DNA of 64,000 nucleotides from NCBI RefSeq assembly GCF_036507355.1, contig NZ_AP027877.1. One strand, 5' to 3'. The notes under the pieces were generated by a model. It searched no databases. It saw only the letters and a list, made by a program, of their open reading frames with translations, and was not told the DNA's origin. Positions within the stretch are counted from its first letter, which is position 1. Each line of letters opens with the position of its first letter. This DNA is from Escherichia coli (GTDB taxonomy: Bacteria; Pseudomonadota; Gammaproteobacteria; Enterobacterales; Enterobacteriaceae). The translations under genes and the position numbers were made by a program. This document shows, in pieces, positions 10,265 to 55,281 of the stretch.

Positions 10265-10357
10265 ATGAATGTTTCCAGTAGAACTGTAGTACTGATAAAT
10301 GTCTTTGCTGCTGGTTTGTTTACTCTTATCTCTATGAGATTTGGCTGGTTTATTTGA
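10265..10357 (+). CDS. yncL: small membrane protein (30 aa)
   Basis: Hand-translated: ATG at 10265, MNVSSRTVVLINVFAAGLFTLISMRFGWFI, stop TGA at 10355-10357; AAGGTGG upstream; matches remembered YncL. Confidence 0.7.
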   Translation: MNVSSRTVVLINVFAAGLFTLISMRFGWFI

Positions 10358-10375
10358 TGTAGTGATTTTGCACGC

Positions 10376-10414
10376 AGCACGTACTGTCAGAGAAATCAAC
10401 TCTCTGACAGTACG
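10376..10414. terminator. 13-bp perfect inverted repeat cgtactgtcagag / ctctgacagtacg immediately 3' of yncL
   Basis: Read directly; no strong U-tract, so function uncertain. Confidence 0.35.
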
Positions 10415-10758
10415 CAAGATCTTCTCATACTCTCCAGGTTTACAACATTATCCTTAATATTTACTTCTTTTTGCTGGCATCTACATTGAAATGAGTAGAA
10501 AACATCCCCCTACTGTCGTCTATACAAACAGCTTACTGATTCAAAGGGAATCTTGTTTTCACATTTTTCTATCATGAATACTTTATACGCGCGGGAGTCT
10601 ATAAATGCTTTATACTTTCAAGGAATAACGTAAATATAAAAAGATGGCGTGAAGTATATGCATGGCAGGATGTTTGCAACCTCCTTGATGACGCTGCCCC
10701 ATTGAAATTGCAAACCCCGCCCTGGTTATCTTGCCCATTTATCATGCAAAACAGATAA

Positions 10759-11568
10759 TTATAGGCCTCTGAATACCTCAGAAAGATTGAATTTTTTATA
10801 GTCCCTCTCTTGAATATTTCCATTTGATATCAATCGATTCATCTCTTCAACAAAATAATTTATATCATCACACTTGTTATTATCCGGAAGATCTGAGTAG
10901 TTATAATTCCACCATTTTATTCTCAACAGTTCATCAATAACATTTGAATCAAACCTAAATCTGATTATTTTTGCAGGAACTCCTGCAACTATGGCATATG
11001 GGGGCACATCTTTGGTAACAACGGAATTGGCAGCAATAACAGCACCATCACCTATTGCGATGCCACCTTTCAATACAACATCATTTCCTATCCAGACATC
11101 ATTTCCTATAATCGGATTTTCAGGTTTGGTAATGAATGGTTTCAATGTCCAGCTACGTTCAAACTCACTCATAGCAAACTTATCAAATTCACCGTTATAA
11201 GTCATCATGTGAGTAGTAAAACGATTCAAAGGATGATTTCCACCCATTATTTTTACATTTGATGCAATACTACAAAATCGACCTATACGTATATTCCCTG
11301 AAAAATGACAGGTCGGAAATGAAAAAGCGCCGACACTGGAGAAATTTTTTACAGGCATTGTTGAATATTCTTCAGCAATAACATTATCTTCAATTGTTAT
11401 CTTGTCACCTTTTGAGAAAAGAAATAAATTCCTTTCTTTATACGACTTCTTCCCCTTATGATTTAAAAAGATTTTATTATCCATACAAAACTCAAAGTGT
11501 TTTTTCGTCCATCTGAAGGTAAGGGTTTTATTTTTATCTTCCGTGAATTTGTACAATTGAACTTTCAT
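10759..11568 (-). CDS. hexapeptide-repeat acyltransferase, XAT-like (Vat/CatB-type xenobiotic acetyltransferase family)
   Basis: 269-aa ORF with ATG at 11566-11568; left-handed beta-helix hexapeptide repeats (IGNDVWIGNDVVLKGGIAIGDGAVIAANSVVTKDVPPYAIVAGVPAKIIRFRF) then WW-containing C-terminus (LRIKWWNYNY); strongly AT-rich compared with flanks. Confidence 0.75.
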   Translation of the reverse strand: MKVQLYKFTEDKNKTLTFRWTKKHFEFCMDNKIFLNHKGKKSYKERNLFLFSKGDKITIEDNVIAEEYSTMPVKNFSSVGAFSFPTCHFSGNIRIGRFCSIASNVKIMGGNHPLNRFTTHMMTYNGEFDKFAMSEFERSWTLKPFITKPENPIIGNDVWIGNDVVLKGGIAIGDGAVIAANSVVTKDVPPYAIVAGVPAKIIRFRFDSNVIDELLRIKWWNYNYSDLPDNNKCDDINYFVEEMNRLISNGNIQERDYKKFNLSEVFRGL

Positions 11569-11777
11569 TGTTAATACTTCTACTTATAAATTATTAATTT
11601 AATAACGATACTCTAAAGCCTTATGCTAATCAACTGTGACAGGATGAAAAATCGCCATCAAACATTTAGCCTAATTTTTACGCTAGTTATTAATGTAATC
11701 ATTCTAATACTTAACCGCCATTAAACTCAGAACCTAAAACGATAGTGGCCGTCCTATAACAGCCACTAACATCTAAC

Positions 11778-13202
11778 TTAATGTTTAACCATGACGTGGC
11801 GGACGACGGTGTAATCCTCCAGCCCATAAAGTGACATATCCTTGCCGTAACCAGAAAGTTTCTGCCCACCGTGCGGCATTTCACTTACCAGCATGAAATG
11901 GGTATTGACCCAGGTACAACCATATTGCAGCCGTGCACTGACGCGATGCGCCCTGCCCACATCTTTCGTCCATACCGAAGATGCAAGTCCGTACTGGCTG
12001 TCATTCGCCCAGTTTACCACCTGTTCTTCGTTGTCGAAGAGCGTAACACTCACTACTGGACCAAATACCTCTTTTTGCACGATGGCATCGTCCTGTAATG
12101 CGCCAGCCAGCAGCGTCGGCGCATAGTAATAGCCATTACCCTTGCGCTTTTCACCGCCAGTGATCACTTTGATGTGCCCTGTCGCTTTCGCCTCTTCTAC
12201 TGCCTTGCTGACGCGTTCGAGATGCGCCAGCGAGCTTAAAGGCCCAAGCTCCGTAGACTCGTCATCCGGCGCACCCGATTTTAACGTTGCCACCGCAGCA
12301 CCGAGTTTTTCCACCAGCGTATCGTAAATGCCTTTTTGCGCGTAGATCCGACAGGCCGCAGTACAATCCTGTCCGGCATTGTAATAGCCAAATGTACGTA
12401 CACCTTCGACCACTGCTTCAATATCCGCATCATCAAAAACAATCACTGGCGCTTTGCCACCAAGTTCCATATGAGTATGCTTAATGGAGGGCGCGGTATG
12501 GCTGATGATGTGCTCGCCGGTGGCGATAGAGCCCGTCAGCGACACCATCCGCACTTTGGGATGACCGGTCAGCGGATCGCCCACCGTTTTGCCTCTGCCA
12601 AACAGTACGTTAATCACGCCTGCCGGGAAGATATCTTTCGCCAGCTCTGCCAACTTCAACGCGGTCAGCGGGGTAATTTCTGATGGTTTAAGCACTACGC
12701 AGTTCCCTGCCGCCAGCGCCGGAGCAAGTTTCCACGCTGCCATCATCAGCGGATAATTCCACGGTGCGATAGAAGCCACGACCCCCAACGGATCGCGACG
12801 GATCATCGAAGTATGACCTTCAAGATATTCACCTGCCGCCAGACCATTCAGACAGCGCGCCGCACCCGCGAAAAAGCGAAAAACATCGACAATCGCCGGG
12901 ATTTCATCATTGAACGCACTATGCAGCGGTTTGCCACAATTACGGGACTCCAGTTCGGCAAAAACCTGACCATTTTCTTCGATTACATCAGCCAGTTTCA
13001 GCAGACATTCCGCACGCACTTTCGGCGTGGTTTGCCCCCATTCGGCAAATGCTGCATCTGCCGCGCGCACAGCAGCATCGACCTGCTCTGCGGATGCCTC
13101 GGCAATCTCCAGTAAAACGTCCCCCGTTGCCGGATTATAGACAGGCTGTTTTTCCCCTTCGCCGCTAACCAGTTCTCCGTTAATCAGTAACTTATGTTGC
13201 AT
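11778..13202 (-). CDS. patD: gamma-aminobutyraldehyde dehydrogenase
   Basis: 474-aa [30 protein letters not shown]...; aldehyde dehydrogenase catalytic motifs. Confidence 0.9.
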
Positions 13203-53810: not shown

Positions 53811-54232
53811 CCTCGCGCATACAGCCGGGCAGTGACGTCATCGTCTGCGCGGAAATGGACGAACAGTGGGGCTATGTCGGGGCTAAATCGCGCCAGCGCT
53901 GGCTGTTTTACGCGTATGACAGGCTCCGGAAGACGGTTGTTGCGCACGTATTCGGTGAACGCACGATGGCGACGCTGGGGCGTCTTATGAGCCTGCTGTC
54001 ACCCTTTGACGTGGTGATATGGATGACGGATGGCTGGCCGCTGTATGAATCCCGCCTGAAGGGAAAGCTGCACGTAATCAGCAAGCGATATACGCAGCGA
54101 ATTGAGCGGCATAACCTGAATCTGAGGCAGCACCTGGCACGGCTGGGACGGAAGTCGCTGTCGTTCTCAAAATCGGTGGAGCTGCATGACAAAGTCATCG
54201 GGCATTATCTGAACATAAAACACTATCAATAA
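53729..54232 (+). CDS. insB: IS1 InsB
   Basis: 167-aa ORF. Confidence 0.9.
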
Positions 54233-54764
54233 GTTGGAGTCATTACCCTGGACTTACGTGTTTTTTCGGTTGAGTCGGGTATTGAAGTATCCGCAGCCCA
54301 TGTCTGGCTACTTAACGCCATGGCAACACAAACAGACAATAATTTTTTCCTTTGCATATAAAATTCCTTAGATCTAGACCGTGCGTAACAAGCCATGCAG
54401 AATTTGAAGATAAATCGTAGTAAATATTCATAGTGAAATAAGCAATAAAGAAATGCTTATATAATTCACAAAATCAATATTAAAATCAGGCAAGTAAAAG
54501 CATACAAAAAAACAGTTGATGGAATTATATTCCACAAAAAACTCACTTCAATCTAAAAATTAACGACAAAAAACAAAAACACACTAATAATTCATTGACG
54601 CTGCATATATATTTTGTGATTACATATATATTGGTAATGATTTGTTATTTAAGGGAAGGATATATAAGGTTTTTGTAGAAATATCCACGGTAATTAAGCA
54701 TGCTAACGTCAGTTTAAATACTGTAAAAGATCATTAATAGATACATTTTGTAGCCAACTATAAT

Positions 54765-55091
54765 TTATTTGCGCAACCATTTACCATTAATTCCCTGAAC
54801 ATATTGCCCCGACTTCGCGCGAGCAACAAGCTTTTGTCCAGCCAGTTTGGCTATCTCTTTAGTGGATACATTATTTTGCTTTGCCAGTTGTTGGTAACTA
54901 TGGTTACGAGCTTCATTAATATCTTTTACTAATGCCTGTGTTTCGGCATCCGTTTGTAGCGCCACCAGGTAACCGTTAAGCGTTTCACCTACCCGCCCCT
55001 GACTTCTGGCTTCGTTCAGGGTTAAAGCCATTGCACTGTCGCTCATCAGGCCAATGGCCCATACAGCTATGAGTAATGTTCTTTTCATCAT
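54765..55091 (-). CDS. ydbL: periplasmic protein (DUF1318)
   Basis: ORF 54765-55169; ATG at 55091 (MMKRTLLIAVWAIGLMSDSAMA...) gives about 108 aa with signal peptide. Confidence 0.75.
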   Translation of the reverse strand: MMKRTLLIAVWAIGLMSDSAMALTLNEARSQGRVGETLNGYLVALQTDAETQALVKDINEARNHSYQQLAKQNNVSTKEIAKLAGQKLVARAKSGQYVQGINGKWLRK

Positions 55092-55095
55092 CACC

Positions 55096-55281
55096 TCAAA
55101 ATAGATCGCTACGGGTTTTGAGCAGGTCTTCAACGTCCTTATCCGCTTTAATGATGATTTCATGCTCAATTTTAACGTTCATATTAATGGTGATTGGCTC
55201 TTTCGGCGCAGCCACTTCAATGCGAGGCGTGCAACCAACCAACATAAAAGAGGACGCAAACGCGGCTATCACTATTTTCAT
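55096..55281 (-). CDS. ynbE: small lipoprotein
   Basis: 61-aa ORF with lipobox MLVGC. Confidence 0.75.
   Translation of the reverse strand: MKIVIAAFASSFMLVGCTPRIEVAAPKEPITINMNVKIEHEIIIKADKDVEDLLKTRSDLF

What the first reader, a model, noticed from the sequence alone, without database searches (positions are those of the whole stretch)
10416..11777. AT-rich islet with an XAT-like hexapeptide acetyltransferase inserted between yncL and patD
About 1.3 kb of markedly AT-rich DNA interrupts otherwise typical E. coli core sequence and carries one 269-aa gene. Its C-terminal half has the hexapeptide beta-helix and a WW-containing tail typical of xenobiotic acetyltransferases (streptogramin Vat / chloramphenicol CatB type); capsule or O-antigen acetyltransferases are an alternative. 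I do not remember any gene at this position in K-12. The compositional contrast suggests horizontal acquisition; substrate is unknown.
Basis: partly seen in the sequence, partly recalled or inferred. Interest (0 to 1): 0.7.

Follow-up and report, generated by a model that had tools for sequence, protein, structure and literature searches.

The report
Orphan XAT-fold acetyltransferase islet
A 1.3-kb AT-rich islet between yncL and patD, carried by about a fifth of E. coli genomes, encodes an uncharacterised acetyltransferase of the Vat/CatB fold whose closer relatives are phage cargo genes and LPS-modifying enzymes, so it is an ordinary accessory gene and probably not an antibiotic-resistance gene.

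Summary
A 1,324-bp segment (about 10459-11782, 34% GC) is the most AT-rich 1.3 kb of the window. It carries one 269-aa gene (10759-11568, minus strand). The locus is in about 1,155 of 5,426 complete E. coli genomes and is absent from K-12, O157:H7 and strain C.

RefSeq already names the product "CatB-related O-acetyltransferase". It has the XAT-class left-handed beta-helix fold, the catalytic His (H112) and the WW tail. It scores far below the curated Vat, CatB and ApmA cut-offs, and the VatD streptogramin-contact residues are not conserved.

The closest experimentally characterised relative I found is the Campylobacter jejuni sialate O-acetyltransferase Orf11 (40% identity). Other relatives sit in Vibrio LPS-core clusters. 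Relatives at 47-55% identity are AT-rich prophage cargo next to tail-fibre genes.

The gene is under purifying selection (dN/dS about 0.1). It has diverged between lineages no more than its flanks, so this is an old presence/absence polymorphism and not a recent insertion.

My best guess, at moderate confidence, is a stranded phage-type conversion gene that O-acetylates an envelope glycan. A cryptic xenobiotic acetyltransferase remains a serious rival. No substrate was tested here, and interest is low to moderate.

The parts
10459..11782 (.). AT-rich islet: the 1,324-bp segment present here and absent from K-12, O157:H7 and strain C (position ambiguous by 6 bp)
   Evidence: Alignment with the K-12 empty site. 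GC 0.34, z = -4.2 within the window. The full locus is in 1,154 of 5,426 complete genomes; the islet alone matches in 1,158.
10759..11568 (-). 269-aa XAT-class hexapeptide (left-handed beta-helix) acetyltransferase. RefSeq names it 'CatB-related O-acetyltransferase' (WP_000867989.1 in the closest genome, which has an identical CDS). The catalytic His112 codon is at 11233-11235.
   Evidence: ORF. Pfam Hexapep. NCBIfam hits all below cut-off. VatD 1e-30 with His82 aligned to H112. AF2 pLDDT 91. Foldseek top hits VatA/VatD/CatB. dN/dS 0.12 and 0.075.
11569..11649 (-). 5' region that travels with the gene. About 80 bp upstream of the ATG is still alignable with the Citrobacter copy at a different chromosomal site. 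It contains a sigma-70-like site, TTTAGA-16-AATAAT, at 11617-11590.
   Evidence: blastn homology extends to query position 252, which is window 11649. Promoter-like match 9/12; the number of such sites is not above chance for the region.
10459..10758 (.). 300-bp 3' non-coding part of the islet, with no recognisable content. No terminator-like site was found between the stop codon and the yncL hairpin at 10380-10414.
   Evidence: No Rfam match. No terminator-like site there. No DNA or translated similarity to any fetched locus or to plasmids.
11743..11768 (-). Terminator-like hairpin plus T-run immediately after the patD stop, lying inside the islet. In occupied strains patD therefore has a different 3' end structure from K-12.
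   Evidence: It is the only terminator-like site in the scan of 10200-11900; inverted repeat I22.
10453..10464 (.). Left copy of the boundary direct repeat, CTTAATATTTAC
11777..11788 (.). Right copy of the boundary direct repeat, CTTAATGTTTAA. It overlaps the patD stop codon (11778-11780) and last codons.
10438..10450 (.). 13-bp patch, CCAGGTTTACAAC, linked to the occupied state. All three empty alleles examined read TACGATCTGCAAT here (7 of 13 positions differ).
   Evidence: Junction comparison of 5 occupied and 3 empty alleles.
11078..11113 (-). Two tandem 18-bp units that encode the hexapeptide GNDVWI/GNDVVL. Strain STEC2018-553 has three units, an in-frame gain of 6 aa (275-aa product).
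   Evidence: Repeat family D6. Alignment with L093. Annotated 828-bp CDS, WP_053293987.1.

Best explanation
SHOWN.
- The islet is a single-gene accessory segment that encodes a soluble acetyltransferase of the XAT class of left-handed beta-helix enzymes. It has hexapeptide coils, an inserted loop carrying the catalytic His112, and a helical C-terminal tail with the WW motif.
- The gene is intact and under purifying selection.
- It is more AT-rich than its host in five of the six other hosts measured; the exception is the Providencia copy, which lies in equally AT-rich prophage DNA.
- In E. coli it is an old presence/absence polymorphism. Occupied genomes include O104:H4, O111, O91 and O121 strains, which I know as phylogroup B1, an ST69 group (phylogroup D, from my own knowledge), and Shigella flexneri. 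K-12, O157:H7 and strain C have the empty site.

INFERRED (my best guess).
- The gene is a stranded phage-type 'moron', meaning a lysogenic-conversion cargo gene with its own promoter.
- Like its closest characterised relative, the C. jejuni LOS sialate O-acetyltransferase Orf11, it would use acetyl-CoA and the His112 general base to O-acetylate a sugar hydroxyl.
- The target would be an envelope glycan assembled at the cytoplasmic face of the inner membrane. LPS core or an O-unit are the most plausible candidates.
- The effect would be a change in a phage receptor or surface antigen.
- It is not an antibiotic-resistance determinant of the Vat or CatB type.
For: Fold and chemistry:
- Pfam Hexapep.
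- H112 aligns with VatD His82, and W159 with VatD W121.
- H112, W219 and W220 are invariant in 24 homologues.
- AF2 pLDDT 91, with a helix inside the LbH insert and a helical tail.
- Foldseek top hits are all Vat/CatB.

Not Vat, CatB or ApmA:
- NCBIfam scores are 125 against a cut-off of 300, 106 against 350, and 83 against 550.
- The VatD streptogramin contacts Y37, Y54, N92, L93, L108 and P109 (bioRxiv 10.1101/2025.01.31.635826) map to T70, F84, M122, T123, F145 and I146 in the alignment.

Glycan link:
- P0127 lies directly after neuA in a cgtA/cst/neuB/neuC/neuA locus. Orf11 of class A/B LOS loci is the characterised SOAT (PMC2174954, PMC3513307, PMC8319020). I equate P0127 with Orf11 by its position in that locus.
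- P0127 shares 40% identity with the E. coli protein over residues 66-252, 143 bits. VatD gives 112 bits.
- Vibrio relatives at 38-40% identity sit between hldD/waaF and heptosyltransferase genes.
- A Ruminiclostridium relative sits next to a sugar nucleotidyltransferase.

Phage link:
- The Kluyvera copy (53%) follows the tail fibre and tail-fibre assembly genes of a P2-like prophage.
- The Providencia copy (55%) lies in a prophage after a tail-fibre-like gene and beside a GT52 glycosyltransferase.
- In IMG/VR locus L106 the copy lies between tail fibre and tail sheath, with GC 0.39 against 0.54 for the locus.
- In L108 the copy directly follows a 755-aa tail fibre gene.
- L107, L109 and L113 lie in the tail-fibre/lysis region.
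- In an NJ tree the E. coli clade is sister to the clade that holds the prophage copies; the SOAT and LPS-core copies come next, and VatD is distant.

Other:
- No relative closer than Vat was found on a plasmid.
- Selection and age.
Against: - In E. coli, Citrobacter, Cedecea, Rahnella and Apirhabdus the gene is solitary. It has no glycan-synthesis or phage genes beside it, so the context argument rests on relatives at 37-55% identity.
- 40% identity to the SOAT is far from orthology. The N-terminal 65 residues do not align with it.
- E. coli of these lineages does not generally make sialic acid (my own knowledge), so the acceptor would have to be a different sugar.
- No O-acetyl group on E. 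coli LPS core attributable to such a gene is known to me.
- Two of the phage copies (L106, L108) have stop codons in the N-terminal region.
- The solved structures closest in fold are all antibiotic-modifying enzymes. That is partly a sampling bias of what has been crystallised.
- The tree is a simple NJ tree without support values.
- No substrate was tested.
Confidence: 0.45

Rival explanations
1. Cryptic xenobiotic or antibiotic O-acetyltransferase. It would be a chromosomal 'proto-resistance' XAT that acetylates a hydroxyl-bearing small molecule, such as streptogramin A, chloramphenicol or another natural product, in the way Vat and CatB do.
For: - All the best solved-structure matches are Vat/CatB.
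- The catalytic His, W159 and the WW tail are conserved.
- The canonical XAT architecture, as described in PMC7885111, is present.
- The gene is solitary with its own promoter region, as chromosomal resistance-like genes often are.
- Sources name it 'antibiotic acetyltransferase' or 'CatB-related'.
Against: - Scores are less than half of the curated Vat and CatB cut-offs.
- The VatD acceptor-contact residues are not conserved.
- The loop after the catalytic His reads HPLNRFTT. P113 is invariant and R116 at least 90% conserved in 74 relatives, and the SOAT reads HPMDRIST. VatD reads HRMDGSTY.
- No close relative was found on plasmids, and no sampled context is a resistance element.
- The gene is not called as a resistance gene at NCBIfam/AMRFinder-type cut-offs.
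Confidence: 0.3
2. Housekeeping-type detoxifying acetyltransferase for a free sugar or metabolite. It would be analogous to maltose/galactoside acetyltransferases or to the phn-associated XAT-like protein, acetylating a non-metabolisable compound in the cytoplasm.
For: - The best NCBIfam hit is TIGR03308, the phosphonate-metabolism hexapeptide transferase, at 131 bits.
- It also matches MAT/GAT families.
- It is solitary among metabolic genes: patD and ydcSTUV in E. coli, a nucleoside phosphorylase-fold gene and an MFS transporter in Citrobacter.
Against: - The TIGR03308 score is below its cut-off of 202.
- The neighbours differ in every genus, so there is no conserved metabolic partner.
- The repeated location next to phage tail-fibre genes is hard to explain by metabolism.
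Confidence: 0.15
3. Silent relic. It would be an H-NS-silenced leftover of an old insertion with no present function, persisting by hitch-hiking.
For: - It is very AT-rich.
- It is dispensable in 79% of genomes.
- Occasional IS1 or IS5-family insertions and truncated products occur.
Against: - dN/dS is 0.12 between E. coli alleles and 0.075 against Citrobacter.
- Every full-length row listed is annotated as this CDS, and the four E. coli copies I translated are intact.
- The full-length family, including the N- and C-terminal extensions, is conserved across Enterobacterales.
Confidence: 0.08

Closest known systems
Campylobacter jejuni Orf11, sialate O-acetyltransferase (SOAT) of class A/B LOS loci
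   Same: Same XAT-type beta-helix. 40% identity over residues 66-252, including the tail beyond the WW motif. Both share the HP..R..T loop after the catalytic His. It is the closest experimentally characterised relative I found (PMC3513307, PMC8319020).
   Different: The N-terminal 65 residues are unrelated. The SOAT is embedded in a cst/neuBCA sialylation operon, whereas the E. coli gene is solitary. 40% identity does not imply the same acceptor.
Vat streptogramin A O-acetyltransferases (VatD 1KHR, VatA 4HUR)
   Same: Same fold and the best solved-structure match. The catalytic His, W121/W159 and the KWWN motif are conserved.
   Different: 125 bits against a curated cut-off of 300. The acceptor-contact residues are not conserved. 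The E. coli protein has about 40 extra N-terminal and about 35 extra C-terminal residues.
Type B chloramphenicol acetyltransferases (CatB / PaXAT 1XAT, CatB8 8J40)
   Same: XAT architecture; Foldseek target-normalised TM-score about 0.6.
   Different: 106 bits against a cut-off of 350. It is not on integrons or plasmids. It has extra terminal regions.
ApmA aminocyclitol acetyltransferase
   Same: An XAT with an added N-terminal region (PMC7885111).
   Different: The N-terminal regions are not alignable. The sequence match starts at residue 72, and Foldseek aligns only 161 columns. 83 bits against a cut-off of 550.
Phage 'morons' / lysogenic-conversion acetyltransferases (for example neuO of prophage CUS-3, from my own knowledge; NeuO structure 3JQY hit at 1.7e-10)
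   Same: Relatives at 47-55% identity are AT-rich single genes next to tail-fibre genes in prophages. The E. coli copy keeps the moron-like layout: its own 5' region and low GC.
   Different: The E. coli islet has no phage genes around it. NeuO belongs to a different LbH subfamily, and only the core hexapeptide stretch aligns.

Membership tests
XAT class of left-handed beta-helix acetyltransferases | Tandem hexapeptide repeats forming an LbH domain | tested here: met
   Pfam Hexapep 1.8e-9 and Hexapep_2. The AF2 model shows short strands with coil periodicity at pLDDT above 90.
XAT class of left-handed beta-helix acetyltransferases | An insert within the LbH that carries the catalytic general-base His (VatD His82 / VatA His87 / ApmA His135) | tested here: met
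   H112 aligns with VatD His82. It is invariant in 24 homologues and at least 90% conserved in 74. A helix at 127-136 lies inside the insert. The architecture is as described in PMC7885111.
XAT class of left-handed beta-helix acetyltransferases | C-terminal helical region with the conserved WW motif | tested here: met
   W219 and W220 are invariant. Helices at 208-217 and 236-248. KWWN aligns with VatD KWWN.
XAT class of left-handed beta-helix acetyltransferases | Overall fold similarity to solved XATs | tested here: met
   The first 35 Foldseek hits are Vat/CatB/XAT chains, E about 1e-10 to 1e-11, probability 1.00.
XAT class of left-handed beta-helix acetyltransferases | Trimer with acetyl-CoA-dependent acetyl transfer at subunit interfaces | not testable with these tools
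Vat family streptogramin A O-acetyltransferase (NF000311) | Score at or above the curated equivalog cut-off | tested here: not met
   125.3 bits against a cut-off of 300.
Vat family streptogramin A O-acetyltransferase (NF000311) | Conservation of streptogramin-contact residues (VatD Y37, Y54, N92, L93, L108, P109) | tested here: not met
   In the alignment they map to T70, F84, M122, T123, F145 and I146. The residue list is from bioRxiv 10.1101/2025.01.31.635826. The loop alignment at 34% identity is uncertain.
Type B chloramphenicol O-acetyltransferase (NF000490) | Score at or above the curated equivalog cut-off | tested here: not met
   106.3 bits against a cut-off of 350.
ApmA aminocyclitol acetyltransferase (NF000084) | Curated cut-off, and the ApmA-type N-terminal region | tested here: not met
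   83.1 bits against a cut-off of 550. The sequence match covers only residues 72-230. Foldseek aligns 161 columns with TM 0.41.
TIGR03308 phosphonate-metabolism hexapeptide transferase | Curated cut-off, and linkage to phn genes | tested here: not met
   130.9 bits against a cut-off of 201.65. No phn genes are beside the gene.
Orf11-type sialate O-acetyltransferase (C. jejuni SOAT) | Close sequence relationship to the characterised enzyme over its full length | tested here: inconclusive
   40% identity over 187 residues, E 5e-46, with the N-terminus unaligned. It is closer than Vat but not at orthologue level.
Orf11-type sialate O-acetyltransferase (C. jejuni SOAT) | Linkage to sialic-acid synthesis and sialyltransferase genes | tested here: not met
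   The C. jejuni and C. lari copies follow cst-neuB-neuC-neuA. The E. coli copy lies between yncL and patD.
Phage moron / lysogenic-conversion gene | AT-rich autonomous gene inserted among prophage genes, typically by the tail-fibre genes | tested here: inconclusive
   Met for relatives: Kluyvera, Providencia, L106, L108. The E. coli copy keeps the low GC and its own 5' region but has no phage genes nearby.

The most novel reading that the evidence does not exclude
E. coli lineages that I take to be phylogroup B1, an ST69-type group, and Shigella flexneri carry a long-fixed, formerly phage-borne conversion gene. Its product O-acetylates LPS core or another conserved envelope glycan. That would be an unrecognised lineage-specific surface modification that alters susceptibility to LPS-binding phages and possibly antigenicity. 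It would also define, together with the Campylobacter SOAT and the Vibrio LPS-core copies, a glycan-directed branch of the 'xenobiotic' acetyltransferase class that is currently mislabelled as antibiotic-related.
Probability: 0.3. Interest if true: 0.55.

Novelty: new member of a known kind. Interest (0 to 1): 0.3.

Why it matters
The practical value is modest.

First, the gene is labelled "CatB-related" or "antibiotic acetyltransferase" in thousands of E. coli and Shigella genomes. That label invites reading it as a resistance gene. The evidence here says it fails every curated Vat, CatB and ApmA test.

Second, if the glycan hypothesis is right, one of the largest E. coli lineage groups, which includes O104:H4, O111, O91 and O121 strains, would differ from K-12 and O157:H7 in a surface modification. 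That would be relevant to phage therapy, phage typing and serology.

Third, the locus is a clean example of an old single-gene presence/absence polymorphism. It has two linked junction haplotypes and could serve as a lineage marker.

Tried and rejected
- **Outgroup test for insertion versus deletion.** It returned no other Escherichia species, so whether the occupied or the empty state is ancestral stays open.
- **Mobile-element signatures.** I found no terminal inverted repeats, no transposase and no attC-like structure. Only the 10/12 direct repeat marks the boundaries. The non-coding parts of the islet match nothing in Rfam, in plasmids or in any fetched locus, including by translated search.
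- **ApmA-like N-terminal domain.** Rejected.
- **Defence-system membership.** No PADLOC hit. The best PHROG family, phrog_16087, has no annotated function.
- **Literature.** No paper mentions the WP accessions of this protein. None ties a streptogramin acetyltransferase to phylogroup B1. The three papers containing "CatB-related O-acetyltransferase" were not opened, and their titles and abstracts do not point to this locus.
- **Conserved neighbour.** An MCP gene lies upstream in both Cedecea and Rahnella. I treated this as coincidence, because the two MCPs have different sensor domains and neighbours differ in every other genus.
- **Recent-insertion reading.** Rejected because the divergence is no greater than in the flanks.
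Full report
**1. The observation**

An ORF on the minus strand, 10759..11568, encodes 269 aa. GC falls to 0.28-0.38 across about 10100-11800 and returns to 0.51-0.56 in patD and beyond. The islet is 34% GC and the gene 33.3% (GC3 28.9%); patD is 53.4%. In sliding 1,324-bp windows it is the lowest-GC stretch of the whole 64-kb window, z = -4.2.

The flanking genes are curA, mnaT, ydcZ, ydcY, ortT and yncL on one side, and patD and ydcV on the other.

Alignment with a K-12-type genome shows a 1,324-bp segment, 10459-11782, that K-12 lacks. It is bounded by a 10/12 direct repeat: CTTAATATTTAC at 10453-10464 and CTTAATGTTTAA at 11777-11788. The right copy includes the patD stop codon.

**2. Distribution and age**

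Megablast against 5,426 complete E. coli genomes finds the full locus in 1,154 and the islet alone in 1,158, always as a single chromosomal copy at this site. The few "plasmid" hits I looked at are multi-megabase records, such as H91. The remaining genomes, including K-12, O157:H7 and strain C, give a match of identical span (480 bp) in every listed row, which is the empty site.

There are two main alleles:
- One is at least 99% identical to the window, in 945 genomes. These include O104:H4 C227-11, O111, O91 and O121 strains. I know these as phylogroup B1.
- A second is about 95.5% identical. 181 genomes are at least 99% identical to it, including a strain labelled ST69. ST69 is phylogroup D from my own knowledge.

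The exact window protein is also recorded from Shigella flexneri.

Between the two alleles the gene differs by 2.2% (dS 0.08). That is less than patD next door (4.0%, dS 0.17) or mnaT-ydcZ (4.0%). The islet has therefore co-diverged with its flanks and is not a recent arrival.

The junctions tell the same story. All five occupied alleles examined read CCAGGTTTACAAC at 10438-10450, whereas all three empty alleles (K-12, O157:H7 and a urine isolate) read TACGATCTGCAAT. That is seven differences in 13 bp, perfectly linked to presence or absence. The site thus carries two old haplotypes.

I could not decide whether the empty or the occupied state is ancestral. The boundary direct repeat fits either a target duplication or a repeat-mediated deletion.

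**3. The gene is functional**

- dN/dS is 0.12 between the E. coli alleles and 0.075 against the Citrobacter homologue.
- Homologues of 255-275 aa are conserved over their whole length in Citrobacter (77%), Cedecea and an Enterobacter sp. (70-71%), Providencia, Kluyvera and Apirhabdus (53-55%), and Pectobacterium, Rahnella, Dickeya and a Pseudomonas (46-49%).
- Occasional strains carry IS1 or IS5-family insertions or truncations.
- The copies measured in Citrobacter, Cedecea, an Enterobacter sp., Rahnella and a Pseudomonas are all more AT-rich than their surroundings. The Providencia copy lies in equally AT-rich prophage DNA.
- Only about 80 bp upstream of the start codon is still alignable between the E. 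coli and Citrobacter copies, which sit at different chromosomal sites. The unit that moves is therefore the gene plus a short 5' region.

**4. What the protein is**

Pfam finds hexapeptide repeats. The best solved relatives by sequence are VatD (6.6e-30), VatA and CatB enzymes. An AlphaFold model built on 74 homologues is confident (pLDDT 91), and its Foldseek hits are led exclusively by Vat/CatB/PaXAT chains.

The features that define the XAT architecture (PMC7885111) are all present:
- an LbH core;
- an insert with a helix that carries the catalytic His. H112 aligns with VatD His82 and is invariant in 24 homologues;
- W159, equivalent to VatD W121;
- a helical C-terminal region with the invariant WW pair.

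The family adds a conserved N-terminal region (about residues 13-60, motif FRWTKKHxEF) and a longer C-terminal tail. The N-terminal region is unrelated to that of ApmA.

**5. What it is not**

Against NCBI's curated models it scores 125 bits for Vat (cut-off 300), 106 for CatB (350), 83 for ApmA (550) and 131 for the phn-associated TIGR03308 (202).

The VatD residues that contact streptogramin A are Y37, Y54, N92, L93, L108 and P109 (bioRxiv 10.1101/2025.01.31.635826). In the alignment they correspond to T70, F84, M122, T123, F145 and I146.

The loop after the catalytic His reads HPLNRFTT. P113 is invariant and R116 at least 90% conserved in 74 relatives. VatD reads HRMDGSTY.

No relative closer than Vat-level similarity lies on any of 72,556 plasmids.

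**6. Where the relatives live**

- In E. coli, Citrobacter, Cedecea, Rahnella, Apirhabdus and an unnamed JGI genome the gene is solitary, and its neighbours differ in each.
- Kluyvera: it directly follows the tail-fibre and tail-fibre-assembly genes of a P2-like prophage.
- Providencia: it lies in a prophage after a tail-fibre-like gene and beside a GT52 glycosyltransferase.
- IMG/VR locus L106: it sits between the tail fibre and tail sheath genes of a P2-like element. From my own knowledge this is the classical P2 moron slot. GC is 0.39 against 0.54 for the locus.
- L108: it follows a 755-aa tail-fibre gene.
- L107, L109 and L113: it lies in the tail-fibre/lysis region.
- The L106 and L108 copies have stop codons in the N-terminal region.

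Further out, at 38-40% identity but covering most of the length:
- Vibrio copies lie inside LPS-core clusters containing hldD, waaF and a heptosyltransferase.
- The Campylobacter lari and C. jejuni copies lie directly after cst-neuB-neuC-neuA in the LOS locus.

Orf11 of class A/B LOS loci has been shown biochemically to be a sialate O-acetyltransferase (PMC2174954, PMC3513307, PMC8319020). I equate the C. jejuni protein P0127 with Orf11 by its position in that locus. It shares 40% identity with the E. coli protein over residues 66-252 (143 bits), against 112 bits for VatD.

A simple NJ tree places the E. coli/Citrobacter/Cedecea group next to the clade that contains the prophage copies. The SOAT and LPS-core copies come next, and VatD is a distant outgroup. 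The tree has no support values.

**7. Mechanism**

Shown: an intact, selected, XAT-fold acetyltransferase with the catalytic machinery, carried on an old, foreign, single-gene islet.

Inferred: like the SOAT, it would use acetyl-CoA and the His112 base to O-acetylate a sugar hydroxyl of an envelope glycan. The target would be built at the cytoplasmic face of the inner membrane, with LPS core or an O-unit the most plausible candidates. The gene would be a stranded phage conversion gene that modifies a phage receptor or antigen. I give this about 0.45.

Rivals:
- A cryptic xenobiotic or antibiotic acetyltransferase is the main rival, at about 0.3. It is supported by fold and by solitary context, and weakened by the failed family tests and the absence of resistance-element contexts.
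- A metabolite-detoxifying acetyltransferase, about 0.15.
- A silent relic, under 0.1. This is contradicted by the purifying selection.

**8. Novelty**

The protein is already in RefSeq under a generic family name. I found no study of it. It is a new, uncharacterised member of a known enzyme class, in an ordinary kind of accessory islet.

The useful result is negative as much as positive. The Vat/CatB label should not be read as resistance. The closest characterised relative I found and several sampled homologue contexts (prophage tail-fibre regions, LPS and LOS clusters) point to glycan modification.

Noticed in passing
window 10266-10357 (yncL): The window's yncL lacks 3 bp (one Val codon; ...FAAGLF... 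instead of ...FAAVGLF...) relative to K-12, O157, 118UI, STEC2018-553 and even the otherwise near-identical strain GDSC2227PM. It looks like a private in-frame deletion in this small stress-response membrane protein.
   Followed up: partly
window 11078-11113; L093 (STEC2018-553): An 18-bp unit that encodes exactly one hexapeptide (GNDVWI) is present twice in the window and three times in STEC2018-553, which gives a 275-aa product. An extra third of a beta-helix coil might disturb the fold. I did not count how common this variant is.
   Followed up: partly
window 11743-11768 versus 10380-10414: In occupied strains patD is followed at once by an islet-borne terminator-like hairpin. In empty strains patD and yncL converge on the single perfect 14-bp-stem hairpin after yncL. 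The islet therefore changes the 3' end of the patD transcript.
   Followed up: no
L094 (strain PI12), between the acetyltransferase gene and patD; hits H72, H73, H90: IS elements have landed in or next to the islet in some strains. ISKpn26 (IS5-like) sits upstream of the gene in PI12. IS1 sits inside the gene in ET665 and PSS-13. In cM2a an IS1 is present and only about 26% of the islet remains. PI12 also carries K-12-type mnaT and yncL alleles beside an occupied site, which suggests the islet was imported by homologous recombination.
   Followed up: partly
L008/L009 (Providencia rettgeri prophage), about 4785-6804: The 55%-identical homologue is paired divergently with a GT52-family glycosyltransferase at the end of a prophage, next to DarT/NADAR or retron-like (reverse transcriptase plus ATPase) defence genes. 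GT52 contains LOS sialyltransferases (from my own knowledge). This looks like a possible two-gene glycan-conversion module.
   Followed up: no
L006/L007 (Cedecea) and L010/L011 (Rahnella): In both genera the homologue lies about 155-180 bp downstream of a methyl-accepting chemotaxis protein gene, although the two MCPs have different sensor domains. This is probably coincidence.
   Followed up: no
window about 54100-55700: This is the second-lowest GC patch of the window (minimum 0.388 in 1.3-kb windows). It lies upstream of, and overlaps the start of, an 879-aa minus-strand ORF (55278-57917). I did not examine it.
   Followed up: no
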